Position numbers and translations under genes: made by a program. Positions 1,118-60,268 of a stretch of 64,000 nucleotides of DNA are shown one piece after another. Each line of letters opens with the position of its first letter. The first letter of the stretch is position 1. This DNA is from a virus, in IMG/VR virus record IMGVR_UViG_3300045988_092736, positions 43,380-107,379 of that record. One strand, given 5' to 3'. The notes beneath the pieces are model-generated. The model was not told the DNA's origin. It searched no databases and saw only the letters and a program-made list of their open reading frames with translations.

Positions 1118-1881
1118 AAAAGGGTATTTTCAGATATAGAATTATCACAAATCTGAATTGCAACATGAACGAAAGTACAGGAGTAAACGGAAATTGTTAC
1201 TTCTGCTACCAAAAGTTTAAGTCACCATTGCGACTGGATTGTGATAAGATGGAGGAAACTTTGAAGAAGGTTGGTGTTCTGAAAAGAGCAACTATCATGG
1301 GTGGTGAGAGTTTACTTAACCCAGAATTGGTAAAGATTGTAAAGATAGTCAGCAACTATACGTCAGATGGTATTTGTCTTGTTACAAATGGAATACTGCT
1401 TAATGAGGACATCATCGTAGCATTGAAAGATGCTGGATTAACTGAGGTTGCTATCAGTGTGTCTTCTATCGAGCAGTACGAAAGACGTAGAGACATGGCA
1501 CTTCAGTGTAAAGAGATTATTCCAAACACAAGAATAAACATTCCTAAGTGTAAGGAAAGCTTGAATCCACAATTGTTGGAAACAATACTGGAAGATGGCT
1601 TCTATAGCATTGTTTGTGAAGATTTACAGGCTAGATATGGTGAGATAAGACTCCCAAAAGGTTCTGTAAAGGTTGGCGATGACGGGTATGGATTTTACGA
1701 TTACAAGTGGAATGGTCATACATTTGGAGTATTTGGCAATTATGGGAAGTACAACCGAAGTGATATTATCGTAACTCCTCTTGGAAATTTCTGCGATTGG
1801 GAAAAGTACTGCAAGGCCGTTAAGAACAATGAACTTGTAAGAAGAAACAATCATATTGATGATGACAAAATTGTGCATTGA
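1114..1881 (+). CDS. second radical-SAM-like protein (MoaA/SPASM-like core, non-canonical Cys spacing)
   Basis: 'CNMNESTGVNGNCYFCY' gives Cx12CxxC. 'MGGESLLNPELV' is GGEP-like, 'LVTNG' and 'AISVSS' resemble core radical-SAM motifs. 4-nt overlap with the upstream gene. Confidence 0.5.
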   Translation: MKKGIFRYRIITNLNCNMNESTGVNGNCYFCYQKFKSPLRLDCDKMEETLKKVGVLKRATIMGGESLLNPELVKIVKIVSNYTSDGICLVTNGILLNEDIIVALKDAGLTEVAISVSSIEQYERRRDMALQCKEIIPNTRINIPKCKESLNPQLLETILEDGFYSIVCEDLQARYGEIRLPKGSVKVGDDGYGFYDYKWNGHTFGVFGNYGKYNRSDIIVTPLGNFCDWEKYCKAVKNNELVRRNNHIDDDKIVH

Positions 1882-15039: not shown

Positions 15040-15386
15040 ACGTTAAAAATTTGGTGGTTTGAAATAAATTTCGTACCTTTGCAACGAAATCCCAAGGTGG
15101 GAGGCGGTGGTGAGAACACCACCTCCCTGTTGGAAATCTAAGCTTTACAATTCAATTGTAAGAGCAACTTTGATTTTCCAAATCCGAATTGAAATATACA
15201 GTCTCATGCGGCTTTGGGATTTCATTTTACCTACTCTTTCAGGTTTTCGGCATCTCCTTTGCAATCTCTCATTGATTACACAGCAAAGATACGAAAAATA
15301 TTTGAAATATGCAAATTATTTCAAGATTATTTTTAGAAAACATGAAAATAAATTAGAGTTTCCTTGCATTTCTCGAAGGTTTTTGT

Positions 15387-19700: not shown

Positions 19701-22700
19701 GAGCTATGGGCTGCAATGCTTGCAAATCCTCTAACTACTATCATTACTCTGGTAACAACCGCAATGTCCGTTTTTGCGATGTTCGGAAGTGACGAGGAAG
19801 ATGTTGCTAAGAAGACTCAAAACATGGGTAATAAGGCTGCTGAGGCTAGTAATAAGGTTCGTTCCTTGTTTGCGGTTTTGGAAAATGGCGAGGCAGAAGA
19901 CCATAAGAACACAATAAATGAATTGAAGTCTGCTTATGAAGAATATGGGGTAAAATTGGATGAGACTAAAATGAAGTCTCAAAGCATGAGTGAGCAAGCT
20001 AATGAGTTAAAGGAGCATGAAGAAGAACTTATCGGTATAATTGAAAAGCGTTCTCTTGAAATGGAGCGTGCAAATCAATTACAAGAGGCTTATGATAATT
20101 ATAATTCTTCAAATGATTCATCTTTCAGCTCATTTAAAGATTCTATAGATGATAAGTTGTCTGATGTAGAAATGGGTACTATTCGAAGTCTCGTAAGTCA
20201 GGATGACATAGACAAGTTAGCTGAACTGCGAAAGGAGATGAATGCTTGTGGTGGAGATTTAAAGGTGTACAACGCATTGAATGCTCAATATTCCCAATTA
20301 CAAGGGGAGTTGAATGTAAAAATAGGAACTTATCTCGAAAATATGCACCATAGCCGTTCTGAGGTGGCTCAGATGATTCCTGATATAAACGACTTTACTG
20401 ATGGGCTTGTTAGCAACAAAGTTGAGTTGGATGGTACGGTTGATTCTATAAATAATAGCGTCAATGCCGCAGAACGTGCGAGAAAAGCCACATCTAAGTT
20501 GACTTATGCGCAAGAGGAACAAGCTTTGAAAAATCAATATGCAAAGAAGAGCTTCAAGGATTTGAATAGTGAAATCCAAGAGACAATAAAGTTGTGCAGT
20601 AGAAAGTTACATCTTGATATTAAGGTTAACTATGATGATAGTGAGCTTCCTGCATGGATTAAGAATATGTCTCAGTCTCAGTTGAAAGCGAGTATGGCTG
20701 TGAGAAAGAACTGGCTTGACGGACACAAAAAAGGGGATGTTCTTCAAGTTGGAGGTCAATATAAGACTTACGAACAGGTCGCAAACGAATTGGCTATGAT
20801 GCAAGCAAGAGGTAACAACATCGAAAGTAAGCCGAAGAAAAGCCAAAAGGAGATAGATAAGGAGAGGAAGGCAAGAGAGAAAGCGGCTAGGGATGCTGAA
20901 AAGGCTAGGAATGATGCCGAGACAAAGGCTGGTAATAAGCGCAAGGCTGAGGAGGACTATGCCAAGTCTATTTCTTCCTATTCGGAGAAAGCTATCCAAG
21001 ACATGACCAAGAACCGCATTAATGCGATGAATGAGGGTTATAGCAAGGAATTGGCTCAGATTACCGAGAATGCCGACAAGGAGAAAAAAGCGGTAGAAGA
21101 TGGTATAGACAAATTGGTTGAGGCTAGGAAAAAGCGTGACCAAGCTGTTTGGGTTAATTCCGGCAAAGGTCGTAAGGCTAATATGTGGAAACAGAGCAAA
21201 ACCGATGAAGAGTACAAGAATGAGGTTTTGAATGAAACCATGAAGGACAGCAAGGGTAATCCGGTTAAGGTAAATGGCATGGAGTTGACCATAGGCATGA
21301 ACGTTGCTAATCAGATGAATGCAATTCGGGATAAGGCTGTAAAGCAGAATGAGGATGTGCTTGCTAAAGAAGCGCAAAGCATGTACGATTATCTGAAGAC
21401 TTATGGTACATTCCAAGAGCAGAAGTTAGCTATTGCTGCCGATTATGCTAAGAGGATTAGCGAGGTTGAAAACTCTACGGATTCGGACTCAAACAAGCAA
21501 TGGAAGATAAAATCTTTGAAAGAAGAGCAGAAGAAAGAGACGGATTCGGTTGAGACTAGTGCTATTATGCAGAAGATAGACTGGTATCAAGTCTTCGGAA
21601 ATGTTGGTGGAATTATGAAAGATGCGCTTGTTCCTTTATTGGCAGATCTGGATAAATTCGTAGGTACGGATAAGTTCCAAAATTTGGGTGCAGACCAGCA
21701 GAAGAGTATAGTTGATGCTATGCAGAATATCCGTAATTCGATTGGTAATACAAGTGATTTGGGTTGGAAAGACCTTGCAAGGGACGTTGTAGCTTATCAG
21801 GAGGCTCTGAAGAATGCGAAAATTGCCCAAGAGGAATATACTGAAACAGAAACCAAGCTTACACCTCGCATTAAGGATTTGCAAAATCAGATAGCGAATG
21901 CGAAAAAGTCGGGCAATGTCGCAGAGCAAGCTAGATTGCAAAATGATTTGAATAAAGTACAAGGTCAGTTAGCGGAGTCCGGAAAGAAGATTGTTACGGC
22001 TAACACAAAAGTCCGTACTAGTGGTCAGAAGTTGGCTCAAACGACACAGAATGTGACGCAACCGATTTCTGCTATCCATGAGTTCCTTTCTACTTCTGGA
22101 CTATCTGATTTAGCATCTCTTTGGGATAGCTTCGATCAGCTTAAAGGTGGAATTGATGGATTGAAAGCTTTGGACGAGGCTAAGAATGCGGCTGATGGTT
22201 TGAAGGATATGGGTAAGGCAGCCGCAGACGCAGCCGCAGCCGCTGGCAAGAAAGCTGGTGATGCGCTAAGTGAAGGATTGTCAAAAGCTGGATTAATAGG
22301 TCAAATCGTATCTGCCATCTTGAAGATACTTGATGTTTTGAAAGATGGTATTGGAACATTGATTAGTAGCTTGATTGATACAGTTCTGAATGCGGTCAAC
22401 GGCATATTAAAGAATATTCTAAGTGGCGATTTTATAACTCAGATTGGAGGGTCTTTGGTAAGCGGCATTGGTAATATTCTCAATACAATATCGTTTGGTG
22501 GATTCAATAGTTTGTTTGGAGTTGGTGGGAACGCAAAAGAAGTAAACCGGACTATAGATAAATTGACGGATAGAAATGAAATCTTGACGGATGCTATAGA
22601 CAAGTTACGAGACTCCATAGACAAGAATAGTGGTATTAAAGCCGTAGAGGACGCTAAAAAAGCCGAAAACCTCCAAAAGGAGAAAGAACAAAATTTAAAG

Positions 22701-23693
22701 AGTATCATGGAGGCGCAAATGGGTTATCATGGCTCTCATCACAGTTTTAACGCTTATTTTCGAGGATTTTCGCAAGAGCAAATCAAAAAGGTGTCCGAAG
22801 CAATAGGCAGACAATGGAATGGTAATCTTAACGACTTGCAATCTGCTGATGAAGCAGCTGCCATTTTGCAGAATCCAGATATGGTTGAGGCTATCAAGAA
22901 TACAGGTAAGGGTGGCTATGGAGGTAGAGTTCTTGAAAAGTTGAAAGACTATGCGGCTGAGGCTGGAACATTAGAGGAAATTGCTGATGACCTTGCAGAA
23001 AGCTTGACGCAAATATCTTTTGATAGTTTGAAGAGCGAGTTCATAGATACTTTGATGGATATGAATTCCTCTGCTCAAGACTTCTCTGATAATTTCTCCA
23101 AGATGCTTATGCAAGCCGTTCTGAAAGCTAAGGTGGATGATTTGTTGGGAAATGATATGCAAGCATTCTATGACGAATGGGCGGAACGAGCTGAGGCAAA
23201 TGGTGGTAAATTGTCAAAGACAGATATAACTGCCTTGAAGGGAAAGTATGATGAAATGGTTCAAGAAGGACTGAAGATTAGAGATGAAGTAGCCGAAATT
23301 ACGGGTTACAAGCAATCTTACGAGCAGTCCGCTTCTTCCGGTTCTTTTGAATCAATGAGTCAAGACACAGGCGATGAGTTGAATGGTCGTTTTACAGCGG
23401 TGCAGATCGCTACGGAGGGAACGTATGAGGAAACAAAACTCATAAATACCAAGTTGGATGCTATTGCGGCTCGTGATGGTGGCGCAGAGGGTAGCTTACT
23501 AACAGCTAGCGTGAATACTATTATGGGTAATGTAGGTAACATTTGGTTAGCTGTTGATGAGGGTAGGACTATCCTTGCACAAAGCTTGATGTACTTGCAG
23601 TCGATTGATGAGAGACAAGAGCGATGGCATAAGCCTATGTTGCAAGCATTCAATGATATACACGAATTGAAAGATAAGATGAGTAGATTGTAA
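16719..23693 (+). CDS. tape-measure-like giant coiled-coil structural protein (2324 aa)
   Basis: Long heptad-rich K/E/Q sequence. Hydrophobic segment 'LTWATNAVTVSMRELWAAMLANPLTTIITLVTTAMSVFAMFG'. T/N/A low-complexity stretch. By far the largest ORF. No catalytic motif seen. Confidence 0.5.
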   Translation: MAQLEFNIKANFDQIKQAKQELERLRGELQKTTKATDKAVVQDLTDKYAEQKQKVTELSSAMSRYALVMSSDYAKKMQNLTREVYSFELQADASKRKIERLSSEIAKMQSKLRKGGLDIGTSTILNRDISENSTILNDEKRRYENLTGLGKQARIELQNMQAEYVRYSGSSSATTDNVKVMTDAFAGMIEEMKKVPTVGEGATSLFNRLGGDAKQLAMSLVGGLGFEQLAEHIFNVRSQFQQLEISFTTMLGSEQRAGALMNQLVQTAAKTPFDMSSITNGAKQLLAYGTAANEVNDILVHLGDISAGLNVPLNDLVYLYGTTMSQGRMYTMDLRQFMGRGIPMAEELGKIMGKTTQEVQQAVTDGKVGADLVKKAIINMTEEGGKFGGLMEKQSTTLQGKWSNIGDSVDQMFNELGKKSQGIFGTGLDLISSLVDNWETVVKVIGSAAVAVGTYKAGLMAAASIQKAQNKATLDSIASNLDEKIKAYKDEAELYHSYTGKDTSEYKSQRLSDLNKAVSNTDMLGTDKAEELVSLKIKEAQTDGIITQQMAEQLQLKRDMLVTQQQSAAKEQMEALELSKGLDEKMAQFKEMENDYRHLNGKDTKDYKASRYNELGNALSDTENIGDDETEKRISKQIELAKSEGLISEEMAKQLQLKRDLLVEQTRLAEKEQLQWQNAVNAKEAAEEELRAKKSQEDDIAAANKAAEQAKAEAALKQKIAKANETAYGKALLETNALQKKVDLQQESYDKAMDEAREKRIVLAQLDEEIKKQQQIIEQKEKELVYDNGAVDTTSFGGYADSFSDNENSSIVQYGAEQAKLEELMQKRQQADEEYESSNAKRKAIQQELQTTTEKLTEAEENETEVYKETGAAADEIGDIVQQGIDIEDGKISITEAATTATQTNTTSEASNATAKSTNANATSSETIANTANSTSKTANTAATNVNTTSENVNTGAKERNSLVTSILSVGTKGLALAQNVLTWATNAVTVSMRELWAAMLANPLTTIITLVTTAMSVFAMFGSDEEDVAKKTQNMGNKAAEASNKVRSLFAVLENGEAEDHKNTINELKSAYEEYGVKLDETKMKSQSMSEQANELKEHEEELIGIIEKRSLEMERANQLQEAYDNYNSSNDSSFSSFKDSIDDKLSDVEMGTIRSLVSQDDIDKLAELRKEMNACGGDLKVYNALNAQYSQLQGELNVKIGTYLENMHHSRSEVAQMIPDINDFTDGLVSNKVELDGTVDSINNSVNAAERARKATSKLTYAQEEQALKNQYAKKSFKDLNSEIQETIKLCSRKLHLDIKVNYDDSELPAWIKNMSQSQLKASMAVRKNWLDGHKKGDVLQVGGQYKTYEQVANELAMMQARGNNIESKPKKSQKEIDKERKAREKAARDAEKARNDAETKAGNKRKAEEDYAKSISSYSEKAIQDMTKNRINAMNEGYSKELAQITENADKEKKAVEDGIDKLVEARKKRDQAVWVNSGKGRKANMWKQSKTDEEYKNEVLNETMKDSKGNPVKVNGMELTIGMNVANQMNAIRDKAVKQNEDVLAKEAQSMYDYLKTYGTFQEQKLAIAADYAKRISEVENSTDSDSNKQWKIKSLKEEQKKETDSVETSAIMQKIDWYQVFGNVGGIMKDALVPLLADLDKFVGTDKFQNLGADQQKSIVDAMQNIRNSIGNTSDLGWKDLARDVVAYQEALKNAKIAQEEYTETETKLTPRIKDLQNQIANAKKSGNVAEQARLQNDLNKVQGQLAESGKKIVTANTKVRTSGQKLAQTTQNVTQPISAIHEFLSTSGLSDLASLWDSFDQLKGGIDGLKALDEAKNAADGLKDMGKAAADAAAAAGKKAGDALSEGLSKAGLIGQIVSAILKILDVLKDGIGTLISSLIDTVLNAVNGILKNILSGDFITQIGGSLVSGIGNILNTISFGGFNSLFGVGGNAKEVNRTIDKLTDRNEILTDAIDKLRDSIDKNSGIKAVEDAKKAENLQKEKEQNLKSIMEAQMGYHGSHHSFNAYFRGFSQEQIKKVSEAIGRQWNGNLNDLQSADEAAAILQNPDMVEAIKNTGKGGYGGRVLEKLKDYAAEAGTLEEIADDLAESLTQISFDSLKSEFIDTLMDMNSSAQDFSDNFSKMLMQAVLKAKVDDLLGNDMQAFYDEWAERAEANGGKLSKTDITALKGKYDEMVQEGLKIRDEVAEITGYKQSYEQSASSGSFESMSQDTGDELNGRFTAVQIATEGTYEETKLINTKLDAIAARDGGAEGSLLTASVNTIMGNVGNIWLAVDEGRTILAQSLMYLQSIDERQERWHKPMLQAFNDIHELKDKMSRL

Positions 23694-32835: not shown

Positions 32836-32885
32836 ACACTAAAACACTTGCAAGTATAAGAAAAAATGCTTATCTTTGCATCGTG
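32836..32885 (+). promoter_or_regulatory. promoter family B (tRNA operon promoter), -7 TATCTTTG at 32871-32878
   Basis: 'cactaaaacacTTGcaagt...TATCTTTGca'. Related copy at 41509-41558. Confidence 0.5.
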
Positions 32886-33024
32886 TTTGAAACAGATGGC
32901 CTTCTGAGAGGTCGCTTCTACCATAATAAGTCAAGACTTAGGAGTTTACGGCATGGTTTTTGAAATTACCCAGCTCAGCTAGACTATAACAAGGAAACTC
33001 TAATTAGGGTGAGAATCCCTAGAT

Positions 33025-33097
33025 GCTGCATTAGACAAGTGGTTAAGTCGCCAGCTTTTCACGCTGGTATTCAAAGGTTCGAATCCTTTATGCAGTA
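33025..33097 (+). tRNA. tRNA-Glu: tRNA-Glu (anticodon TTC)
   Basis: Cloverleaf: acceptor GCTGCAT/ATGCAGT, anticodon stem CCAGC/GCTGG, loop TTTTCAC, T-arm AAAGG-TTCGAAT-CCTTT. Confidence 0.7.
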
Positions 33098-33103
33098 CTA
33101 AAT

Positions 33104-33174
33104 TGCCCTATGGTGTAATGGCAACACTACAGGTTTTGGTTCTGTCATTAGTGGTTCGAATCCACTTGGGGCAA
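33104..33174 (+). tRNA. tRNA-Gln: tRNA-Gln (anticodon TTG)
   Basis: Acceptor TGCCCTA/TGGGGCA (one G-U), D-stem GTGT/ACAC, anticodon stem ACAGG/TCTGT, loop TTTTGGT, T-arm AGTGG-TTCGAAT-CCACT. Confidence 0.7.
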
Positions 33175-33204
33175 CGAGGAGGAATAGGAGTATGTTCCAC
33201 AAAT

Positions 33205-33289
33205 GGTGCGATATTCAAGCGGTTAAAGAAGATTGACTGTAAATCAATTCCCATAGCGGGTTCGGTGAGTTCGAATCTCCCTTGCACCA
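33205..33289 (+). tRNA. tRNA-Tyr: tRNA-Tyr (anticodon GTA) with long variable arm
   Basis: Acceptor GGTGCGA/TTGCACC, anticodon stem ATTGA/TCAAT, loop CTGTAAA, about 15-nt variable arm, T-loop TTCGAAT. Confidence 0.65.
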
Positions 33290-33311
33290 CAAGTACTTTT
33301 GTCATATTACA

Positions 33312-33385
33312 AGGAATGTAGCTCAGTAGTAGAGCACTTGGCTATGCAACCAAGGGGGCGTTGGTGCAAATCCAACCATTCCTTT
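33312..33385 (+). tRNA. tRNA-Cys: tRNA-Cys-like (GCA) with an apparent 8-nt anticodon loop
   Basis: Acceptor AGGAATG/CATTCCT, U8A9, D-stem GCTC/GAGC, anticodon stem CTTGG/CCAAG enclosing CTATGCAA, T-arm GTTGG-TGCAAAT-CCAAC, discriminator U as in tRNA-Cys. Confidence 0.5.
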
Positions 33386-33387
33386 AC

Positions 33388-33459
33388 GCTTTCGTAGCTC
33401 AGTGGCAGAGCATAGGATTTTTAATCCTAGGGTCGAAGGTTCGAATCCTTCCGTTGGCA
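33388..33459 (+). tRNA. tRNA-Lys: tRNA-Lys (anticodon TTT), two U-U mismatches in the acceptor stem
   Basis: D-arm GCTC-AGTGGCA-GAGC, anticodon stem TAGGA/TCCTA, loop TTTTTAA, T-arm GAAGG-TTCGAAT-CCTTC, acceptor GCTTTCG/CGTTGGC. Confidence 0.55.
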
Positions 33460-33641
33460 CAATGATACACAAGAAGAGAGCCGTGATGTTTGTCCTATTG
33501 GAATCTCGGACATCTGTCAACGGGTAAACGTAGGAAGCAGATGGGACGAATAAAGTTGCGAATAAGTCTATGAACTAGGGAGACAAGCGGAATGGTTCTC
33601 TTTTGTGTTTCGTTTGATGGTTTTACGAAAATTAGAAGAAT

Positions 33642-40836: not shown

Positions 40837-40858
40837 GACATAGGCAACAAATGATAGA

Positions 40859-40890
40859 GGGGGATGGTGTTAATGCCGTTCCCCTTTTTT
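40859..40890 (+). terminator. rho-independent terminator
   Basis: 'GGGGGAtggtgttaatgccgtTCCCCTTTTTT'. Confidence 0.65.
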
Positions 40891-40903: not shown

Positions 40904-41287
40904 ATGAGTAAGGCAAGTAAATTAGTTACGGATGCAATTCTTGGAGAGGACACCGTAACGATAATCGTGAATGGAAGGGCTTATTACGTTTCACCACCTA
41001 CAATTATAAAATTGGTCAAGGCGGCTAAATACCTTGATAGTTTCGAAGAGGGCAAGACCTTAGCGGAAGTCTTATGCATGCTTAAGAATTTGGATGATGC
41101 TTGCAAGGCGTTGTCCGTATTCATACAAGGCGATGAATCCATTAGTGATGAATTATCTAAAGGAACGCTTGAAGAGGTTGTCAATGGCTTACAAACGGCT
41201 TATTCCTTAATCTCTATAAAGGATTTTCAGACGCTATCAATTTTGGCGAAGAGTGCGGCAAGGATGATAGCAAAACCACGACCATAG
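40904..41287 (+). CDS. hypothetical protein
   Basis: Intact ORF. Confidence 0.4.
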   Translation: MSKASKLVTDAILGEDTVTIIVNGRAYYVSPPTIIKLVKAAKYLDSFEEGKTLAEVLCMLKNLDDACKALSVFIQGDESISDELSKGTLEEVVNGLQTAYSLISIKDFQTLSILAKSAARMIAKPRP

Positions 41288-41508
41288 GTAACGATACACT
41301 CTTAGGACAGATTGCATCTTTTATGGATAGTCTGCACTTATCTTACCAAGAAGTCGTGAAAGAGATACCTTATAGAAATTTATTACTGATGGCAAAAGAC
41401 AAGCAAAGAGTAGCATGTGGTGATGTAATGTATGAGGTAACGGAAGAAGAGTTTGGAATGAACTTCAAAAAAGGATAAGTTTAAAATAATGCAAATAAAG
41501 TATTAAAA

Positions 41509-41558
41509 GCACTAAAACGCTTGCAAGTTAGCGAAATATTATTTATCTTTGCAAGCGC
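41509..41558 (+). promoter_or_regulatory. promoter family B copy 2 (-7 TATCTTTG at 41544-41551)
   Basis: 'cactaaaacgcTTGcaagtt...tatttATCTTTGcaagcgc', matching the tRNA-operon promoter. Confidence 0.5.
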
Positions 41559-41564
41559 AGAACA

Positions 41565-41700
41565 AAAAAGGATAAAATGGCGATTTAAGAAATTGATAAG
41601 ATATTAGAGACACGAAACCCGATGGACTATACCGAAAGGCAGTCCGAGTCACTATTCCTTTGACTTTGCAATCGGTAGTTTCGTGTTTTTGTGTTTAAAA
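41565..41700 (+). ncRNA. candidate structured RNA: small RNA or transcription attenuator
   Basis: Nested inverted repeats ACACGAAAC...GTTTCGTGT, CCGAT...ATCGG and GGACT...AGTCC, ending in TTTTTGTGTTT, 8 nt upstream of the 41705 ATG. Confidence 0.35.
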
Positions 41701-41704
41701 TAAG

Positions 41705-42007
41705 ATGCAAGACGTAAGGTTGATATTCGAGATACTGGTTTCCATGTTGCTTTGCGTTTGTCTCATATTGCTTGCTGTAAGTAGATATAGGCAAAAGAAA
41801 AAGCGTGAAGAACCGGAGCGAAAGGAAATGGACTTGATAGACTTCTTTTCTTTGGGAGGAGTTGCCTATTATTGGAACAAAGGTGGTAAGCAGCAGAAAT
41901 GCTACACATACGAAGAATTTCTGAAAATCAAGGCTGACTACGTGGAGCTTTGGTTGAATCAGAATAGATATATTTTTAACTCTCAATTAGATTGCGATGA
42001 TATATAG
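41705..42007 (+). CDS. small membrane protein
   Basis: TM 'LIFEILVSMLLCVCLILLAV'. Confidence 0.4.
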   Translation: MQDVRLIFEILVSMLLCVCLILLAVSRYRQKKKREEPERKEMDLIDFFSLGGVAYYWNKGGKQQKCYTYEEFLKIKADYVELWLNQNRYIFNSQLDCDDI

Positions 42008-42227
42008 AGTATTTGTTTTGTTTCCGACAATAGTTGTATCAGATAGTATTGTCGGTATAGCTTGGCTAGGAAAGGTCTTTGGCTGGCGATATGGAAAGAA
42101 CAAGAAAAAGAGCAAGAATGTGTCCTTAATGATAGGATATAACACAGGAATGTCTCTTAAGTCGAAAATAGATGATAACGCAGCGGATGATTATTTAAGA
42201 CGCATTGCCGAAGAAAACAGAATCTAA
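41997..42227 (+). CDS. small membrane protein
   Basis: TM 'VFVLFPTIVVSDSIVGIAWL'. Confidence 0.35.
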   Translation: MIYRVFVLFPTIVVSDSIVGIAWLGKVFGWRYGKNKKKSKNVSLMIGYNTGMSLKSKIDDNAADDYLRRIAEENRI

Positions 42228-42321: not shown

Positions 42322-43428
42322 ATGTATAAAAACGAGCACAAGTTCCCTTATAGATGGACTAAAAAAGATGCTAATTTTACAAAAGACAAAGGTAAGGTGA
42401 TGTCTTGCTTTTGTTGTGGAGGTGGAAGTTCCTTTGGTTACAAACTAGCTGGATACGATGTTGTAGCCTGTAATGAGATAGACCCAAAGGTTATGAAGAT
42501 GTACTTGAAAAATCACGATGTCAAGTACGCTTTCAATTGTGATATTCGTGAGTTGATTACCAATATCAATATGGGGGGGCATATTATGAAAGAAGAGTTG
42601 CATAATTTGGATATATTGGATGCTAGTTTCCCATGTTCTGTATTCAGTATTGCAGGTGACCGCCAAAAGGCTTGGGGAAAGGAAAAAGTATTCCGAGAAG
42701 GTCAGAAGGCGCAAAGGCTTGACGATTTGGCTTTCTACTCTATTGACCTTGCTAAAGAACTAAAGCCAAAGGTGGTGGTTTTTGAGAATGTCCAAGGTTT
42801 GTTGCAAGGTGAAGCTATCGAGTACGTGAAAGAGATTTACAAGCAGATGGATAATGCCGGATATATCTTGCAGCATTGGTTGCTTAATGCACGTAATATG
42901 GGTGTTCCTCAGAATCGACCTAGGGTGTTCTTTCTAGGATTACGCAAAGACCTTTGCGAGCCGTTTATGGTTCAGAAGGATTTGTTCGAGCGAGTGCCTA
43001 AGATAGATATGGACTTCAACGAGAAAGAAATTGTCTTGGATGAGTTCTCGGACTATAATGGAAGACAGATTCCTAAAGGAATGATGAAGTATTGGGAGTA
43101 TAGAAACGAAAAGGACAATTCTATCGGTGATATTGTCAAGCGGATGGATAATCGTCTTTCTATGTTCAATAATATGTTTCTTAAAAAGAACAAGGTATGC
43201 AATACCATATCAGCAATGGAAGATAGACTTGTGTATTATGATAATCCAAGTTATCTTTCAGCACATGATACGATTTTAGCATCAACATTTCCGATGGATT
43301 ATGACTTTAATGGCATGAAACCTTGGTTTGCTTGCGGAATGTGTGTTCCTCCTGTTATGATGGCTAATGTAGCTACAAGAATCTGGGATTGTTGGTTATC
43401 AAAGATTAAAAAGGAGGAATGCGCATGA
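42322..43428 (+). CDS. DNA (cytosine-5)-methyltransferase
   Basis: Motif I 'FCCGGGSSFG', motif IV 'FPCSVFSIAG' (PC), motif VI 'VVVFENVQGLL' (ENV). Confidence 0.8.
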   Translation: MYKNEHKFPYRWTKKDANFTKDKGKVMSCFCCGGGSSFGYKLAGYDVVACNEIDPKVMKMYLKNHDVKYAFNCDIRELITNINMGGHIMKEELHNLDILDASFPCSVFSIAGDRQKAWGKEKVFREGQKAQRLDDLAFYSIDLAKELKPKVVVFENVQGLLQGEAIEYVKEIYKQMDNAGYILQHWLLNARNMGVPQNRPRVFFLGLRKDLCEPFMVQKDLFERVPKIDMDFNEKEIVLDEFSDYNGRQIPKGMMKYWEYRNEKDNSIGDIVKRMDNRLSMFNNMFLKKNKVCNTISAMEDRLVYYDNPSYLSAHDTILASTFPMDYDFNGMKPWFACGMCVPPVMMANVATRIWDCWLSKIKKEECA

Positions 43429-44162
43429 TAACAGCAAGTATGACATCGGGAGAGATGCGTAGAGTACGAAACTTAGATGAAGCTAGAATCTATGAGTTTC
43501 AGATGCGAAAAGCTAATGAGCTTAAACGTGAAATGAGAAAGCAGAACGTAAGACAAATAACAAAGACCTTTGAGCTTGCTACACCTAATGCCGATTATTT
43601 CATCGTTGTAGGTGTAAAACATGGCGATGTATTTGCTTCCGGTTTGTTCATTTATCTGAAGGAAACCAACGAGTATATTCCTATGAGTAGAAACGAGGGG
43701 TATAGCGAAGATTGTTTTGCTATGAGCGTTCATTTTCTGAAGAGATTTGCAGAAAGGTTTTTGAAAAAAGACTTACCGATTCTCAAGATATTGCAAAAGA
43801 TATATACATCGTTTACAGGTGCTGTTCAGCTCTATAGTGATGACAAGACAAGAAGAGTGGTATTTGCTATTCCGGAAGGGCTTATACTCACAGAATACGA
43901 GCAAGAAAAGCATATCATCCATTACAAAACCTTTGTAAGCATGGATATGCTAAAGAAGACACAGAAGCGGAGTTATGAGAAGATAAGTGCATTTCTCATG
44001 GAGTCTTGTCAGCAAATAGCTAAAGCAAGAGACACCGGAAATGACGAAAGGCTGTGCGTTGTGTACAGAAGGTTTTACAATGATATTGATTTGCTAGATA
44101 CAAAGGAGGCGCAAACCATATATTCAAGTTTCTTTGAAAAAGGAGGTAACAATGAAAGATAA
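43419..44162 (+). CDS. hypothetical protein
   Basis: Intact ORF. Confidence 0.4.
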   Translation: MRMITASMTSGEMRRVRNLDEARIYEFQMRKANELKREMRKQNVRQITKTFELATPNADYFIVVGVKHGDVFASGLFIYLKETNEYIPMSRNEGYSEDCFAMSVHFLKRFAERFLKKDLPILKILQKIYTSFTGAVQLYSDDKTRRVVFAIPEGLILTEYEQEKHIIHYKTFVSMDMLKKTQKRSYEKISAFLMESCQQIAKARDTGNDERLCVVYRRFYNDIDLLDTKEAQTIYSSFFEKGGNNER

Positions 44163-44655
44163 ATGTATAACAAGGTTTCTTGGTGATATAAAGCCTATAA
44201 AGAATTACGAAAGGTATTATGTTAGCAAGCTGGGACATGTTTTTACTATTGGGAGAACGTCTCAATTAAAGGAAATCGTACCTTGCAAGACACCAAAAGG
44301 TTATCTGAAGGTATGGCTTTACAAGAACGGAAAGCGCAAGATGTTTTATATCCATCGTTTGGTAGCTCAGGCTTTCTTGAAGAATCCAGAAGCGTTGCCG
44401 ATGGTGAATCATAAGGATTTCGACAAGACGAATAACGATGTAGACAACTTGGAGTATTGCACCGCAAGATACAATGTGATTTATTCTGCTATAGCAAAGA
44501 AGACTTCATCTGTATACTTGGGCGTGACGTGGAATAAGAACAACAGAAAATGGCAAGCTCAGTACCAGATAGGTAAGAAGAAAATTTATATCGGATGCTT
44601 TGGGACGCAAGAAGAAGCTCACGAAGCTTATGTTAACGCTATTAAAGAGATTTGA
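44152..44655 (+). CDS. HNH-AP2 homing endonuclease
   Basis: HNH_3 'VNHKDFDKTNNDVDNLEYCTARYN' plus AP2 'YLGVTWNKNNRKWQAQYQIGKKKIYIGCFGTQEEAHEAYVNAI'. ATG at 44152. Confidence 0.7.
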   Translation: MKDKCITRFLGDIKPIKNYERYYVSKLGHVFTIGRTSQLKEIVPCKTPKGYLKVWLYKNGKRKMFYIHRLVAQAFLKNPEALPMVNHKDFDKTNNDVDNLEYCTARYNVIYSAIAKKTSSVYLGVTWNKNNRKWQAQYQIGKKKIYIGCFGTQEEAHEAYVNAIKEI

Positions 44656-44656
44656 T

Positions 44657-45370
44657 ATGCTAGAATTAAACAGAATATACAATTCCGACTGTATAGAAGG
44701 AATGAAGCAAATAGAGAGTGGGGAGGTGGATTTGATTGTTACTGACCCTCCGTATTGCATAGCCTACAAGACTGGGTGGAGAGCTGACGACCATCGTTTC
44801 TCTAAGGAAATACTCAATGATGATAATGAGCAATTGATTATTGATTATATGAGCGAATGCTACCGGATTTTAAAGGATGATAGTGCTGCTTATATTTTCT
44901 GTAGTGCCAAGACCTTAGACTTTTTTATGCAACAAGCGAGGAATGCAGGGTTTACCATTAAGAATGTGCTCATTTGGCGAAAGAACAACCATACGGCTGG
45001 AGATTTAGAGGCGCAATATGGTCAATGTTACGAGCCAATCCTGTACTTGAATAAAGGCAGACGAACCATAAACGGCAAGCGTTTGGAGGACGTATGGGAC
45101 TTTGATAGAGTTCCATCAGATAAATTGGTACATCAGAACGAGAAGCCAATCCCCTTGCTTATGCAATGCATCTTGAAATCATCGAACGAAGGAGATTTGG
45201 TGTTTGATGGCTTTATGGGCAGCGCAAGTACTGCTCTGGCTTGTATGCGGACAAATCGGAATTACCTTGGTTTTGAATTGGATGAGGATTATTTCAAGGT
45301 GGCACAAAGAAGAATTAAGGAAGAATTGTTTAATCAAAAAGATATGTTTGGATATGCTGGAGTTAAATAG
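44657..45370 (+). CDS. DNA methyltransferase, N6-adenine/N4-cytosine class
   Basis: 'DLIVTDPPY', then 'EKPIPLLMQCI' and 'GDLVFDGFMGSASTALAC'. Start 'MLELNRIY' at 44657. Confidence 0.8.
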   Translation: MLELNRIYNSDCIEGMKQIESGEVDLIVTDPPYCIAYKTGWRADDHRFSKEILNDDNEQLIIDYMSECYRILKDDSAAYIFCSAKTLDFFMQQARNAGFTIKNVLIWRKNNHTAGDLEAQYGQCYEPILYLNKGRRTINGKRLEDVWDFDRVPSDKLVHQNEKPIPLLMQCILKSSNEGDLVFDGFMGSASTALACMRTNRNYLGFELDEDYFKVAQRRIKEELFNQKDMFGYAGVK

Positions 45371-46070
45371 AATTTATCAAGGTGATTGTCGAAAGCTTTT
45401 AAAGCTGATTGATAGTGATAGCATAGACCTCGTATGTTCCGATGTGGCTTATCCGGTTCAGTCTAGGGGTGGCTCAGGGAGTATGGGAGGATATTGGACG
45501 GAATCTCAAACAAGAAAGGGCAAAATATTCAAGAGTAACGATATTGATATTTCGGACTACATCAATGATTTGTACCGGATATTAAAGGACAGGTCGCATT
45601 GCTATCTTATGTGTAATGATTATAATTTAATGCACTTTCTTGATGTGGTAGGAAAGAGTGAGTTCCATTTTACCAAATGCTTAATATGGGATAAGTGCGC
45701 AAAAATATGTGGCCGCTATTATATGGCACAGAAAGAGTATATCATCATGCTACGCAAAGGTGGTGATAGACCGATAAATGAATGTGGTACATCTGACATT
45801 CTGAGTGTTCCTATTCCAACCAACAAGCGCAAGGATAAGGATGGTTTGATTAATCAGACTGAAAAACCTGTAAAGTTGATGGAGATATTAATTAGAAACT
45901 CGACAAATGTTGGTGATGTTGTTCTAGACCCATTCATGGGGAGCGGTACAACGGCAAGAGCTTGCGTAAACCTTGAAAGAAAGTATATAGGCTTTGAAAT
46001 AGACCAGCGTCAAGTAGATTTTGCTAATAACGAATTAAAGAATATGAGTAGGCAGTTAAGTCTGTTTTGA
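45354..46070 (+). CDS. second tandem paralogous DNA methyltransferase (same class)
   Basis: Starts 'MLELNRIYQGDC'. 'TEKPVKLMEILI' and 'GDVVLDPFMGSGTTARAC'. Variant catalytic motif 'SDVAYP'. Confidence 0.75.
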   Translation: MLELNRIYQGDCRKLLKLIDSDSIDLVCSDVAYPVQSRGGSGSMGGYWTESQTRKGKIFKSNDIDISDYINDLYRILKDRSHCYLMCNDYNLMHFLDVVGKSEFHFTKCLIWDKCAKICGRYYMAQKEYIIMLRKGGDRPINECGTSDILSVPIPTNKRKDKDGLINQTEKPVKLMEILIRNSTNVGDVVLDPFMGSGTTARACVNLERKYIGFEIDQRQVDFANNELKNMSRQLSLF

Positions 46071-46074
46071 AACT

Positions 46075-46299
46075 ATGGATATGTGCAAGGTGTTTTGTTG
46101 CAATCCTGTTGTAAGAAATGGGAATAAAGAAACAACGGATGCTCTTATAAGAGCTATGAGAGACGAAGCCTTAAAACGAGGGTTGGTACGTGATGAATTG
46201 ATAGGTTTTTGCAACCGATTCTTGAGAGAAGGCGAAATCAAAGCTTGTATAGAGCATTTGCTAGATAATTTCAAACGTTATTTTTGGAGGTATCATTGA
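46075..46299 (+). CDS. hypothetical protein
   Basis: Intact ORF. Confidence 0.35.
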   Translation: MDMCKVFCCNPVVRNGNKETTDALIRAMRDEALKRGLVRDELIGFCNRFLREGEIKACIEHLLDNFKRYFWRYH

Positions 46300-46300
46300 T

Positions 46301-46930
46301 ATGAGAAGAAGAAAGTTGAACAAGTCTCCAGTGCTAGGCTTCTGCGGATTTGTTATCGGTTACGAGTGCAAGGAAAAGGAAATAAAGCTGATGGAGTGCG
46401 ATAAGGCGCAAGCAGATGCAATCATAGTTCCTCATCACTTTTCACACAAGGTAACGAAGAATAGTTGCTTGAATCTTTTGGTATTGTACAAAGGCAAGAT
46501 TAGGGGTGCAATGCAAATAGGGTATGGAATCCGACCGCACATCAAGACTGAAAAGGGCGAAGTGTTGGATTACCATCAAGTAAGGGAATTTGACAGAATG
46601 TGGTTGTCTGATGATATGCCAAAGTATAGCGAGACGATTTGTCTTTCTCTCTTGCACAAGTATATAAGGGCAACGCATAAGGAAATCAAATACCTTATAT
46701 CTTATGCCGATACGTCCATAGGTAACAAGGGAATAATATATAAAGCTGCAAACTATGAGCATATTGATACCATTAAGGCAGATTTCTATGTATTACCAAG
46801 TGGTGAGCGTGTGCATCCGGTAACTATGTGGCATCGGCACAAGACAAGAGCATGGGAGGTTCTAACGGAACTATACCCAGGAATAAAAAAGGCAGAAGGG
46901 TTTCAACTTAAATTTCTGAAGAAGTTATGA
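46301..46930 (+). CDS. hypothetical protein in the methyltransferase island
   Basis: 209-aa ORF with no motif I recognise, tightly linked to the methyltransferases. Confidence 0.4.
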   Translation: MRRRKLNKSPVLGFCGFVIGYECKEKEIKLMECDKAQADAIIVPHHFSHKVTKNSCLNLLVLYKGKIRGAMQIGYGIRPHIKTEKGEVLDYHQVREFDRMWLSDDMPKYSETICLSLLHKYIRATHKEIKYLISYADTSIGNKGIIYKAANYEHIDTIKADFYVLPSGERVHPVTMWHRHKTRAWEVLTELYPGIKKAEGFQLKFLKKL

Positions 46931-59327: not shown

Positions 59328-59522
59328 ATGAGCAAGCAAACATTTGACTTCTCGGAGGCTTTAAAGCGTATGAGAAAAGGAAAGCTCGTAAAGCGTGAAA
59401 ATGGGCTTTATCCGTTTGGTATTGACGAGGAAGGAATATTCTATCATTATGGGCATCATATATTCAAGGAAGATAGAATGCTCTCAGAGGATATACTTGC
59501 AATAGACTGGGAGGAGGTGTAA
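59328..59522 (+). CDS. DUF2829 / Tad2-like small protein
   Basis: 'FDFSEALKRMRKGKLVKRENG' and C-terminal 'EDILAIDWEEV' match the DUF2829 pattern (F.FSEAL.ALK.GK.V.R..W ... DLLAEDWEIV). Confidence 0.55.
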   Translation: MSKQTFDFSEALKRMRKGKLVKRENGLYPFGIDEEGIFYHYGHHIFKEDRMLSEDILAIDWEEV

Positions 59523-59524
59523 GG

Positions 59525-60268
59525 ATGAAAAAGAAAATATTGACTCTCACCATCAGCAAGCAGTGGTTTGATATGATTGTGGCTGGCGAAAAGACTGAGG
59601 AATACAGAGCTGTCAAATCGTATTGGATAAACCGCTTAATTCAAGCAAAATACGGAGGAAGTGATGAATATCGCAAGGTTACAATGCACCCAGAGTTTGA
59701 TATGCTTATAAGCAATTCAAAGCTCAAAGAGTTGCTTGAAAAGAAAACCGCTAGGTTCATCCCTTACACCTACGTCCGATTCTTCTGCGGTTATGCGAAA
59801 AATCGTCCGATGATAGAAAAGAAAATCGAAGGTATCACCTTTGGAAAGCCGAAAAATGGCTTGATACTGAGTTTTTTATTATTAAATTTAAGTGATATGA
59901 AAATAAAGAATTTACCAAAGAAGATTTACCTCAATATCTGTAGCAATGAAGATGAGGTAGATTACAATGAGCTTAACGGAGTAACGTTCAGTACAGAAAT
60001 GGTTGGTGTTACCGATTGTGATACGGAAAACGTTCCTTACGTGAATGCTGCATCATTATGGCACGACCTAAAAGAAGATAAGCCACCTTTAAAAAAGTGG
60101 GTAATGTTCCGATATAGTGGAGGTGGCGTAAATCCTACGGCTCTTCATTATGGAGCAATGAGTGACGATATATGGGTTGTCACAAGAGGAGACGGAACAC
60201 AGCGTATCGAAGTTCTGTATGAGTGCTACGATAAGATTGAGTGGCTTGACTTTGATGAACTAAAATAG
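59525..60268 (+). CDS. ASCH/DUF3850-like PUA-fold domain protein with C-terminal extension
   Basis: N-terminus 'LTLTISKQWFDMIVAGEKTEEYRAVKSYW' matches the ASCH/DUF3850 signature. Confidence 0.4.
   Translation: MKKKILTLTISKQWFDMIVAGEKTEEYRAVKSYWINRLIQAKYGGSDEYRKVTMHPEFDMLISNSKLKELLEKKTARFIPYTYVRFFCGYAKNRPMIEKKIEGITFGKPKNGLILSFLLLNLSDMKIKNLPKKIYLNICSNEDEVDYNELNGVTFSTEMVGVTDCDTENVPYVNAASLWHDLKEDKPPLKKWVMFRYSGGGVNPTALHYGAMSDDIWVVTRGDGTQRIEVLYECYDKIEWLDFDELK

What the first reader, a model, noticed from the sequence alone, without database searches (positions are those of the whole stretch)
41509..41704. Family-B (tRNA-type) promoter driving a structured RNA that ends in a terminator just before a membrane-protein gene
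The promoter at 41509-41558 shares 'cactaaaac(a/g)cTTGcaagt...TATCTTTGca' with the tRNA-operon promoter. About 50 nt downstream is a multi-helix element, followed by a U-run ending 8 nt before the ATG of 41705. The helices are ACACGAAAC/GTTTCGTGT enclosing CCGAT/ATCGG and GGACT/AGTCC. This is either a stable small RNA about 130 nt long, or a transcription-attenuation or riboswitch-like leader controlling the two small membrane proteins.
Basis: seen in the sequence. Interest (0 to 1): 0.5.

Follow-up and report, generated by a model that had tools for sequence, protein, structure and literature searches.

The report
Phage c4-like antisense leader RNA
A strong phage promoter drives a conserved three-armed RNA of about 80 nt that ends in a terminator just before an operon; it looks like a gut Bacteroidales-phage relative of the c4 antisense RNAs that phages P1 and P7 use to hold back their antirepressor genes, so it is real but not unprecedented.

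Summary
A Bacteroidetes-type promoter (TTG 41521, TATCTTTG 41544-41551) matches the tRNA-operon promoter. It is followed by a 58-nt purine-rich leader, a 77-nt three-way-junction RNA (41610-41686), a U-run (41687-41696) and the ATG at 41705.

I found the element in eight phage lineages, always between this promoter and the first ORF of one operon. The operon runs: optional Bro-N/AntA/ANT antirepressor-like gene, membrane protein, DNA methylases. Fourteen of 27 base pairs show compensatory changes.

The window copy matches no Rfam family. Two related copies hit Rfam c4-2 (c4 antisense clan) full-length at 27 bits, below the 41-bit threshold, and the architecture agrees helix by helix. As in P1 c4, the single-stranded J3/1 and the P3 loop are complementary to two sites in the upstream leader. 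The J3/1 site covaries in three classes.

Best reading: a c4-like antisense/leader RNA that gates this operon. This is a new variant of a known kind. A riboswitch is not supported. Downstream targets, processing and termination efficiency are untested. The window lineage has lost the antirepressor gene.

The parts
41510..41551 (+). Bacteroidetes sigma-A-type promoter. It contains a conserved upstream block, the -33 TTG (41521-23) and the -7 box TATCTTTG (41544-51).
   Evidence: Identical boxes and spacing occur at the tRNA-operon promoter 32848-32878: 2 matches against 0 expected. The -7 box TATCTTTG is invariant in all 8 lineages, 53-67 nt upstream of P1. The consensus TAnnTTTG / TTTG is taken from PMC7366714.
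41552..41609 (+). Purine-rich 5' leader. It carries an a1-like site (GCAGA, 41557-61), a b1-like site (AAAGGA, 41567-72) and the invariant motif AGAUAU (41599-41604).
   Evidence: The leader is 53-67 nt long in all lineages and AGAUAU is present in all 8. The a1-like site is complementary to J3/1 in three covarying classes. The b1-like site is complementary to the P3 loop at the same leader position in most lineages, but not beyond what base composition gives.
41610..41686 (+). 77-nt three-way-junction RNA core. P1 41610-18/41678-86; 2-nt bulge 41676-77; P1b 41619-23/41671-75; P2 41624-28/41641-45 with bulge AU and cap ACC-GAAA-GGC (41631-40); P3 41646-51/41661-66 with loop CUAUUCCUU (41652-60); J3/1 UGCA (41667-70).
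   Evidence: Fold. Covariance-model hits in 8 lineages. Hand alignment: 14 of 27 pairs compensatory and 98% of cells canonical. Unfitted MAFFT alignment: 92% paired against 84% in shuffles, and 11 pairs changed on both sides against 6.1, with 0 of 500 shuffles reaching these values; slid controls give 31-41% paired. RNAalifold recovers P1, P1b and P2 independently. This is the lowest population variability in the neighbourhood.
41687..41696 (+). U-run (UUUUGUGUUU) directly after P1. The geometry is that of an intrinsic terminator, and it may also serve as an a2-like site.
   Evidence: A U-rich tract follows P1 in all lineages, and P1 is extended by a covarying pair (UA/GU/CG/AU). In the L168/L380/L416 clade UUUGCUU is a perfect 7-bp complement of J3/1 AAGCAAA. 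In the window it is only 5 bp with two G-U pairs, and the tract is polymorphic in the population. The simple terminator scan does not call it because the 'loop' is a branched structure.
41705..42007 (+). First ORF of the downstream operon: a 100-aa membrane protein. It is followed by a 76-aa ORF (41997-42227), a C5 DNA methylase (42322-43428), a 247-aa ORF, AP2/HNH (44134-44655), an N6/N4 methylase (45204-46070) and a Mom-like gene (46301-46930).
   Evidence: ORFs; Pfam/PHROG hits. The gene order is conserved in relatives, where a Bro-N/AntA/ANT gene usually comes first.

Best explanation
The element is a c4-type phage regulatory RNA, a distant relative or close structural analogue of the Rfam c4-2 / C4 antisense RNA clan. 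It is built into the 5' leader of an early operon that ancestrally starts with an antirepressor-like gene.

Shown:
- A host-type promoter lies 58 nt upstream of a covariation-supported three-way junction.
- The closing helix of that junction is followed by a U-run.
- The first ORF starts 8 nt after the U-run, so every operon mRNA must read through the element and carry it as its leader.

Inferred:
- Many transcripts stop at the U-run and release an RNA of about 140 nt, which may be trimmed to the roughly 80-nt core.
- As in P1 c4, the two exposed segments are recognition elements. These are the J3/1 strand (a'-like) and the P3 loop (b'-like).
- They pair with an a1/b1-like pair of sites in the leader. 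In at least one clade they also pair with sites covering the U-run and the start codon of the first ORF. This would repress translation and read-through of the operon, as feedback or immunity.
- The GAAA-capped P2 arm is structural.

In the window lineage the antirepressor gene has been deleted. The RNA there sits directly before the membrane-protein and DNA-modification genes.
For: 1. Conserved position. The RNA was found in 8 lineages, always on the + strand between the TATCTTTG promoter and the first ORF of the same operon. The ATG follows the U-run by 5-16 nt.

2. Structure. 14 of 27 pairs are compensatory and the shuffle and slide controls are passed.

3. Rfam.
- L416 2192-2272 and L380 2147-2231 match RF02944 c4-2 (clan CL00128) over the full model, 1-79/79, on the correct strand.
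- Scores are 27.2 and 27.3 bits, with E = 0.15 in the 45-kb search and 4e-4 to 7e-4 in the local searches.
- It was the top hit in the 45-kb search, ahead of one unrelated snoRNA match at E = 0.59.
- The alignment matches helix for helix: P1, internal loop, P1b, bulged P2 with GAAA, P3 with a U-rich loop, and a 4-nt J3/1.

4. P1 itself (record AF234172) shows the same layout: promoters, a1 and b1, the 77-nt C4 RNA, a2 and b2, then icd-ant. In C4 the P2 arm is tetraloop-capped, b' lies in the 12-nt P3 loop and a' lies in J3/1.

5. Complementarity between J3/1 and leader positions about 5-10 falls into three classes:
- UUUGC:GCAAA
- (U)AAGCA:UGCUU(A)
- UAGAC:GUCUA
Cognate pairs give 5-7 bp in seven lineages (4 bp Watson-Crick, or 5 with one G-U, in the window copy), against 2-3 bp for non-cognate pairs. 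The order a1 then b1 is what antiparallel pairing to b' then a' requires.

6. The P3 loop is complementary (6-10 bp) to the leader segment that follows.

7. In L168/L380/L416, J3/1 pairs 7 bp with UUUGCUU in the U-run. By hand pairing of the sequences printed, the P3 loop pairs 7-8 bp with the start-codon region (U)GUAUGA(A/G).

8. The first gene is Bro-N/AntA/ANT-like in 6 of 8 lineages (in L385 only as frameshifted fragments, read by eye). In L420 the membrane protein starts with MNQI, the first four codons of the L391 Bro-N gene, which indicates a deletion that kept the RNA and the start site.

9. C4 is known to regulate Ant (PMC8201110, citing Citron and Schuster 1990). c4-2 is described as a likely distant homolog of a known RNA (PMC5737381).
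Against: - The window copy gives no Rfam hit, even at E <= 10, and neither does L385.
- The c4-2 hits are 14 bits below the gathering score and come from one clade only.
- My model R2 does not detect P1 c4, so homology is not demonstrated.
- The complementarity between the leader and the P3 loop is no better than in composition-matched shuffles (p = 0.02-0.6), and it is not lineage-specific.
- No consistent downstream (a2/b2) target exists across lineages. It is weak in the window and absent in L382 and L385.
- The U-run sequence is polymorphic in the window population.
- P1 c4 has no terminator after it.
- L167 has the same promoter and operon but lacks the RNA, so the RNA is dispensable.
- The window lineage has no antirepressor gene after the RNA. 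No integrase or repressor was seen among the window ORFs I scanned.
- There are no expression data.
Confidence: 0.55

Rival explanations
1. Purely cis-acting attenuator or 5'-UTR module. The three-way junction plus U-run is a partially efficient intrinsic terminator. It also acts as an mRNA 5' stabiliser and translation-start context. It sets a fixed, or protein- or RNAP-modulated, level of read-through from a very strong promoter into a potentially toxic DNA-modification/antirepressor operon. The leader:J3/1 and leader:P3-loop pairings are intramolecular pseudoknots, and the released short RNA has no trans role.
For: - The anatomy forces read-through for operon expression.
- The stem plus U-tract is conserved, and P1 is extended by a covarying pair.
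- The tight coupling to the start codon is kept even after deletion of the first gene.
- The operon contains Mom and methylases.
- No convincing downstream antisense target exists in the window lineage.
Against: - A plain hairpin would be enough for attenuation.
- The fold matches c4-2/C4, whose exposed J3/1 and P3 loop are antisense elements.
- The U-tracts are imperfect in several lineages.
- I saw no alternative antiterminator pairing by eye and made no dedicated search.
Confidence: 0.22
2. Riboswitch-like, ligand-sensing attenuator. The three-way junction would be an aptamer whose P1 doubles as the terminator stem, sensing for example a methylation-related metabolite.
For: - The RNA is a structured three-way junction with a GNRA tetraloop, and P1 is followed by a U-run.
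- The operon encodes SAM-dependent methylases.
- No Rfam family matches the window copy.
Against: - The unpaired junction strand J3/1 is not invariant (UGCA / AAGCA / AGACA). It covaries with a leader site instead.
- The P3 loop varies in length and sequence.
- There is no competing expression-platform structure.
- The element is present or absent between near-identical phages (L168 against L167).
- It resembles an antisense RNA family.
Confidence: 0.06
3. Independent trans-acting small RNA, unrelated in mechanism to c4. Its pyrimidine-rich P3 loop would target purine-rich start regions of other phage or host mRNAs. Its location before the operon would be incidental.
For: - It has its own strong promoter and a terminator-like 3' end, the canonical features of Bacteroides intergenic sRNAs (PMC7366714).
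- The CU-rich loop finds many purine-rich partners, for example a TTGCAA...AAGGATG site at the start of ORF 59525.
Against: - The element is always 5-16 nt from the first ORF of the same operon in 8 lineages.
- No target is conserved.
- The relaxed pattern gives about 30 hits in the window, so hits at start codons are expected by chance.
Confidence: 0.1
4. Only a terminator for the upstream late structural operon (capsid, tube, chaperone), which happens to sit after an unrelated promoter.
For: - All upstream genes are on the same strand.
- No other terminator lies between the chaperone stop (41478) and the element.
Against: - The promoter lies upstream of the structure at a fixed distance in all lineages.
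- In several relatives the element is several kb from the structural genes, after other modules.
- The branched, covarying fold with an invariant GAAA is more than a terminator needs.
Confidence: 0.04

Closest known systems
C4 antisense RNA of phages P1/P7 (Rfam RF01695) with its a1/b1 and a2/b2 sites
   Same: - The layout is the same: promoter, leader with two sites complementary to the RNA, a 77-nt three-way-junction RNA, then the first ORF of an antirepressor operon.
- P2 is capped by a stable tetraloop.
- The recognition elements lie in the long P3 loop (b') and the single-stranded J3/1 (a').
- The a-site comes 5' of the b-site.
   Different: - There is no detectable sequence or covariance-model similarity.
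- The tetraloop is GAAA, not UUCG, and P2 is bulged.
- J3/1 is 4-6 nt, not 7.
- P1 is followed directly by a U-run and the ORF starts 5-16 nt later. In P1, a2 and b2 occupy 50 nt before icd and no terminator follows.
- Downstream sites are clear in only one clade.
- The host phylum lacks Shine-Dalgarno-based initiation and Hfq (own knowledge; PMC7366714).
- The window copy has no ant gene.
c4-2 RNA motif (Rfam RF02944; Weinberg et al. 2017, PMC5737381)
   Same: Full-length sub-threshold covariance-model matches of two lineages. The elements are arranged in the same order: P1, an internal loop, P1b, P2 with a bulge plus a 3-bp extension plus GAAA, P3 with a U-rich loop, a purine-rich J3/1 of 4-6 nt, and a UU tail. 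Helix and loop sizes differ (see 'different').
   Different: - Scores are 27 bits against a gathering score of 41.
- The window, L385 and the other lineages do not hit.
- Our RNAs are AT-rich, have no 5' internal loop between P1 and P1b, and have a 5-bp P1b.
- I could not check the taxonomic range and gene context of c4-2, because its supplement is not held.
IsrK of the Salmonella Gifsy-1 prophage, and the P4 CI RNA (own knowledge; isrK Rfam RF01394 matches the P1 a1/b1 region)
   Same: These are phage or prophage small RNAs made from the 5' part of a longer transcript. They act on the same operon (antirepressor / immunity) through complementary sites located both upstream and downstream of the RNA.
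   Different: The folds are different and there are no Rfam matches here. Their mechanisms involve Hfq, or RNase P processing and Rho, none of which could be tested here.
Lambda PR'-tR' 6S transcript with Q antitermination, and Bacteroides UpxY/ops leaders (PMC11685472)
   Same: A strong constitutive promoter is followed by a short terminated leader transcript ahead of an operon.
   Different: No ops-like YGCGNAGCR element or Q-type site was seen. No antiterminator gene was identified.

Membership tests
Rfam c4-2 (RF02944) | Covariance-model score at or above the gathering threshold (41 bits) | tested here: not met
   L416 scores 27.2 bits and L380 27.3 bits, both full-length. There is no hit at E <= 10 for the window copy or L385. 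The other lineages give nothing at E <= 1.
Rfam c4-2 (RF02944) | Architecture: P1, internal loop, P1b, then a three-way junction with a bulged, GAAA-capped P2, a P3 with a U-rich loop, and a J3/1 of about 4 nt | tested here: met
   The consensus-structure lines correspond helix for helix to the covariation-supported fold.
C4 antisense RNA (P1/P7, RF01695) | Sequence/structure match to the family model | tested here: not met
   There are no C4 hits in any lineage. Model R2 does not find P1 c4, whereas Rfam finds it at 68.8 bits.
C4 antisense RNA (P1/P7, RF01695) | Upstream a1/b1 sites in the same transcript, complementary to J3/1 (a') and the P3 loop (b') | tested here: inconclusive
   a1: there are three covarying classes, with 5-7 bp in cognate pairs (4-5 bp in the window copy) against 2-3 bp in non-cognate pairs. 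b1: 6-10 bp are present in all lineages, but this is neither above composition nor specific.
C4 antisense RNA (P1/P7, RF01695) | Downstream a2/b2 target sites covering the translation start of the first gene | tested here: inconclusive
   Present in L168/L380/L416: 7 bp in the U-run and, by hand pairing of the sequences, 7-8 bp over the start codon. Weak in the window, L420 and L391. Absent in L382 and L385.
C4 antisense RNA (P1/P7, RF01695) | Lies at the head of an operon that encodes an antirepressor | tested here: inconclusive
   Met in L391, L382, L380, L416 and L168 (whose first gene is a remnant of a Bro-N/ANT fusion). L385 carries only a decayed, frameshifted Bro-N-like gene. Not met in the window or L420, where the gene has been deleted.
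C4 antisense RNA (P1/P7, RF01695) | Processed to about 77 nt (by RNase P) and represses in trans | not testable with these tools
   This needs RNA-end mapping and genetics.
Riboswitch | An invariant ligand-pocket junction and a mutually exclusive expression platform | tested here: not met
   J3/1 and the P3 loop vary and covary with the leader. RNAalifold finds no conserved leader structure. No antiterminator pairing was seen by eye; no dedicated search was made.
Intrinsic terminator | A stable stem immediately followed by a U-tract, and termination in vivo | tested here: inconclusive
   A stem of 10-13 bp plus a U-rich tract is present in all lineages. The tract is interrupted in L385 and starts with A in five lineages. 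The simple scan does not call it because the loop is branched. Function is untested.

The most novel reading that the evidence does not exclude
The c4-type fold has been turned into a self-contained, factor-responsive transcription attenuator. It would gate an anti-restriction / DNA-hypermodification operon (methylases, Mom) in a very abundant Segatella/Prevotella phage. The three J3/1:leader pairing classes would then define heteroimmunity or cross-talk groups among co-circulating gut phages. This would be the first antisense-RNA immunity system described in Bacteroidota, which lack Hfq and Shine-Dalgarno-based initiation.
Probability: 0.2. Interest if true: 0.6.

Novelty: new variant of a known kind. 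Interest (0 to 1): 0.42.

Why it matters
c4-type antisense RNAs are classic immunity determinants of enterobacterial phages P1 and P7. I know of no counterpart described for phages of gut Bacteroidales, although I could not check the taxonomic range of the c4-2 motif.

This element gives four things:
- a covariation-supported RNA family that is absent from Rfam at curated thresholds;
- a concrete, testable model of RNA-based control of an antirepressor / DNA-modification operon, in a phylum where antisense regulation works without Hfq or Shine-Dalgarno sequences;
- three apparent specificity classes that could mark immunity groups among very abundant human-gut phages;
- a likely explanation of how a very strong, tRNA-type promoter can sit in front of potentially toxic genes.

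Tried and rejected
It returned only window-type copies plus chance matches.
2. A tighter pattern that excluded the window type gave 3 chance hits in IMG/VR. In the metagenome collection it gave one L168-identical copy plus 3 chance hits.
3. Protein-guided scans of IMG/VR returned only the abundant window-type phage. Diversity came only from ENA/Logan contigs, reached through the look-up of encoding contigs.
4. Distant prophage relatives in Bacteroides, Paraprevotella and others (tube protein 40-57% identical) lack the RNA. In the P0105-lineage contigs (L173-L176) and in phage BS-TP2 the tape-measure gene follows the chaperone directly.
5. I tested the leader:P3-loop pairing as a statistically supported pseudoknot and rejected that. 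It is not better than shuffled leaders and not lineage-specific.
6. Searches for a conserved downstream target of the P3 loop, or of the whole RNA, found no consistent site. Long RNAduplex runs were uninformative.
7. Leader mini-ORFs (for example AUG GCG AUU UAA in the window) are not conserved between lineages, so a leader-peptide mechanism was rejected (from the sequences).
8. Hammerhead and other ribozymes, tRNA-like elements, type III antitoxin repeats and an ops/UpxY element were ruled out. There were no Rfam or ARAGORN hits, the junction strands do not fit, there are no repeats and there is no YGCGNAGCR.
9. An 11-nt GAAA tetraloop receptor was sought by eye. Only half-sites (UAUGG) occur in some leaders.
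10. A window-wide search for a-site plus b-site pairs gave about 30 relaxed hits, so those near start codons are not significant.

Full report
**Observation**

The sequence is as described.
- A Bacteroidetes-type promoter has TTG at 41521-23 and the -7 box TATCTTTG at 41544-51. It is embedded in the block cactaaaacgcTTGcaagt...tTATCTTTGca.
- The pattern TTGCAAGT-N15-TATCTTTG occurs exactly twice in the 64 kb. The other copy, at 32848-32878, heads the five-tRNA cluster at 33025-33460. No match is expected by chance. The consensus TAnnTTTG / TTTG is that of the Bacteroides primary sigma factor (PMC7366714).
- P1 (ACACGAAAC/GUUUCGUGU) starts 58 nt after the -7 box. It encloses P1b (CCGAU/AUCGG) and P2 (GGACU/AGUCC).
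P2 continues past an AU bulge into ACC-GAAA-GGC. A third helix, P3 (GAGUCA/UGACUU, loop CUAUUCCUU), completes a three-way junction, with J3/1 = UGCA.
- The U-run 41687-41696 ends 8 nt before the ATG at 41705.
- The fold is far more stable than shuffles (-36.4 kcal/mol, z = -3.6).

**Context**

The window is an uncultured phage that is very abundant in the human gut.
- IMG/VR holds dozens of near-identical contigs of 64-130 kb. MT835576 is 98% identical. One copy is binned with a Segatella copri MAG.
- Upstream lie the major capsid gene (37347), a tail-tube-like gene (40279) and a two-part chaperone (40904, 41323).
- Downstream lie a 100-aa membrane protein, a 76-aa ORF, a C5 methylase, a 247-aa ORF, AP2/HNH, an N6/N4 methylase and a Mom-like protein.
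- The tape-measure gene is elsewhere, at 16719-23693.

**Homologs**

- The 80 closest genomes barely vary in the RNA.
- I found divergent relatives by taking homologs of the tube protein and of the membrane protein from the large protein collection and fetching their contigs.
- nhmmer, and then a covariance model (R1), found the RNA in seven further lineages: L420, L391, L168 (= L421), L382, L385, L380 and L416.
- In every case it lies on the coding strand, 53-67 nt after an invariant TATCTTTG box and 5-16 nt before the first ORF of the same operon.
- That first ORF is a Bro-N/AntA/ANT-type (antirepressor-like) gene in L391, L382, L380 and L416. In L385 it is a decayed, frameshifted one, read by eye. 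In L168 it is a remnant of a Bro-N/ANT fusion.
- In the window and in L420 the RNA abuts the membrane-protein gene. L420's protein begins MNQI, the first four codons of L391's Bro-N gene. This indicates a deletion that kept the RNA and the start site.
- L167, whose membrane protein is 98% identical to that of L168 and whose promoter is nearly identical, lacks the RNA. The element is therefore modular and dispensable.
- Distant prophage relatives (tube protein 40-57% identical) lack it.

**Structure**

- On a hand alignment checked against the sequences, 98% of cells are canonical. Fourteen of 27 pairs show compensatory double changes, spread over P1, P1b, P2, the P2 extension and P3.
- On an unfitted MAFFT alignment, 92% of cells pair against 84% in shuffles. 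Eleven pairs change on both sides against 6.1 in shuffles. No shuffle in 500 reaches either value. Sliding the partners gives 31-41% paired.
- RNAalifold independently recovers P1, P1b and P2. It also extends P1 by a covarying pair (UA/GU/CG/AU) into the U-tract.
- The GAAA tetraloop is invariant. The P3 loop varies from 6 to 16 nt and is pyrimidine-rich. J3/1 is UGCA(A), AAGCA or AGACA.
- Among 81 window-type genomes the core has 3.9% variable sites, against 20-28% in the flanks. The only common polymorphism lies in the P3 loop.

**What it resembles**

- The window copy matches no Rfam family, even at E <= 10.
- A scan of the homolog loci gave, as its top hit, a full-length match of L416 2192-2272 to RF02944 c4-2, a member of the c4 antisense RNA clan. 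The score is 27.2 bits against a gathering score of 41. E is 0.15 in 45 kb and 7e-4 locally. The only other hit was an unrelated snoRNA match at E = 0.59.
- L380 gives 27.3 bits; L385 gives none.
- The alignment shows the same elements in the same order: P1, internal loop, P1b, P2 with a bulge plus three pairs plus GAAA, P3 with a U-rich loop, a purine-rich J3/1, and a UU tail.
- I then read the annotated P1 genome. Its layout is: promoters, a1 and b1, the 77-nt C4 RNA, a2 and b2, then icd-ant. In C4 the P2 arm is capped by UUCG, b' (UCACUAAC) is the P3 loop and a' (CUGUCAA) is J3/1. C4 regulates the Ant antirepressor (PMC8201110, citing Citron and Schuster 1990).

**Testing the c4 logic here**

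- J3/1 with its flanks is complementary to leader positions about 5-10 in three classes:
  - window/L420/L391: UUUGC:GCAAA (only 4 Watson-Crick pairs, or 5 with a G-U, in the window itself);
  - L168/L380/L416: (U)AAGCA:UGCUU(A);
  - L382/L385: UAGAC:GUCUA.
- Cognate runs are 5-7 bp in seven lineages (4-5 bp in the window copy); non-cognate runs are 2-3 bp.
- The P3 loop is complementary (6-10 bp) to the leader segment 4-8 nt further on. This gives the a-then-b order that antiparallel pairing to b'-then-a' requires.
- However, that second complementarity is explained by a purine-rich leader facing a pyrimidine-rich loop. It is no better than shuffles and not lineage-specific.
- Downstream, the L168/L380/L416 clade has UUUGCUU in the U-run, a perfect 7-bp match to J3/1. 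By hand pairing of the sequences, (U)GUAUGA(A/G) over the start codon matches the P3 loop (7-8 bp).
- The window, L420 and L391 have only 5-7 bp with G-U pairs in the U-run. L382 and L385 have nothing convincing. The window's U-run is polymorphic in the population.
- An invariant leader hexamer, AGAUAU (41599-41604), remains unexplained.

**Mechanism**

- Shown: the promoter, the fold, the U-run, and the fact that operon mRNAs must read through and carry the element.
- Inferred: partial termination releases an RNA of about 140 nt. Its J3/1 and P3 loop then act as antisense elements on the leader and start region, as in P1 c4.
- I put this at about 0.55.
- The main rival is a purely cis-acting attenuator / 5'-UTR module, at about 0.2. 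A riboswitch is unlikely, because the junction strand varies and covaries with the leader, I saw no alternative platform by eye, and the element is present or absent between near-identical phages.

**Verdict**

The RNA element is real and conserved. It is a new variant of a known kind: the c4 / c4-2 type of phage antisense RNA, here with a built-in terminator and in Bacteroidales phages. It fails the curated Rfam threshold and homology is unproven, so I describe it as c4-like rather than as a member. Interest is moderate.

Noticed in passing
window 15228-15260 (-): Rfam DUF805b RNA hit above its gathering score (39.6 bits against 35.6). It lies on the strand opposite to nearly all ORFs.
   Followed up: no
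window 33311-33385 (+): A tRNA that ARAGORN reports with a 4-base anticodon 'atgc' (an 8-nt anticodon loop). Rfam scores it as tRNA at 59.6 bits, with an insertion in the anticodon loop. It could be a frameshift-suppressor-like or otherwise unusual phage tRNA.
   Followed up: no
window 32881-33024 (+): A 145-nt transcribed leader lies between the twin promoter and the first tRNA. It has no Rfam match at gathering thresholds and was not folded.
   Followed up: no
window 16719-23693 and 40904-41478; L173 5631-10531: The tail module is split. The tape-measure gene (2324 aa, TMP_3) does not follow the chaperone genes, although it does in the P0105-lineage contigs (L173-L176) and in phage BS-TP2. 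The RNA-headed operon sits exactly at that breakpoint.
   Followed up: partly
window 40904-41287 and 41323-41478 (+): Two adjacent small ORFs in different frames follow the tube gene (phrog_13669 and phrog_14740). The arrangement looks like a G/GT-type chaperone pair made by programmed frameshift. A strong hairpin plus T-run lies at 40856-40887, between the tube and chaperone genes.
   Followed up: no
window 41599-41604 (+) and all 8 lineages: The invariant single-stranded hexamer AGAUAU lies 4-10 nt upstream of P1 and has no identified partner. It may be a processing or protein-binding site.
   Followed up: partly
L167 8700-8835 versus L168 9490-9700: These two phages have 98%-identical membrane proteins and near-identical promoters, yet they carry different leader-plus-first-gene cassettes. 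L167 has no RNA and an AntA gene. L168 has the RNA and a 149-aa ANT-remnant gene. The breakpoint falls right after the -7 box.
   Followed up: partly
window 335-1881, 42322-46930: The window is dense in DNA-modification functions: two radical-SAM proteins, a C5 methylase, N6/N4 methylase(s) and a Mom-like protein. There are also Thy1 and amidoligase/GATase genes next to the capsid module.
   Followed up: no
window 59497-59526 (+): TTGCAA...TAAGGATG lies at the start of ORF 59525-60268. It is complementary to both J3/1 and the P3 loop of the RNA and so could be a trans target. The relaxed pattern gives about 30 hits in the window, so this may be chance.
   Followed up: partly
window 41530-41543 and 41691-41697: Among 81 near-identical genomes the promoter spacer and the U-run/pre-ATG stretch are polymorphism hot spots (19-22% non-singleton sites). 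The RNA core between them is almost invariant.
   Followed up: yes
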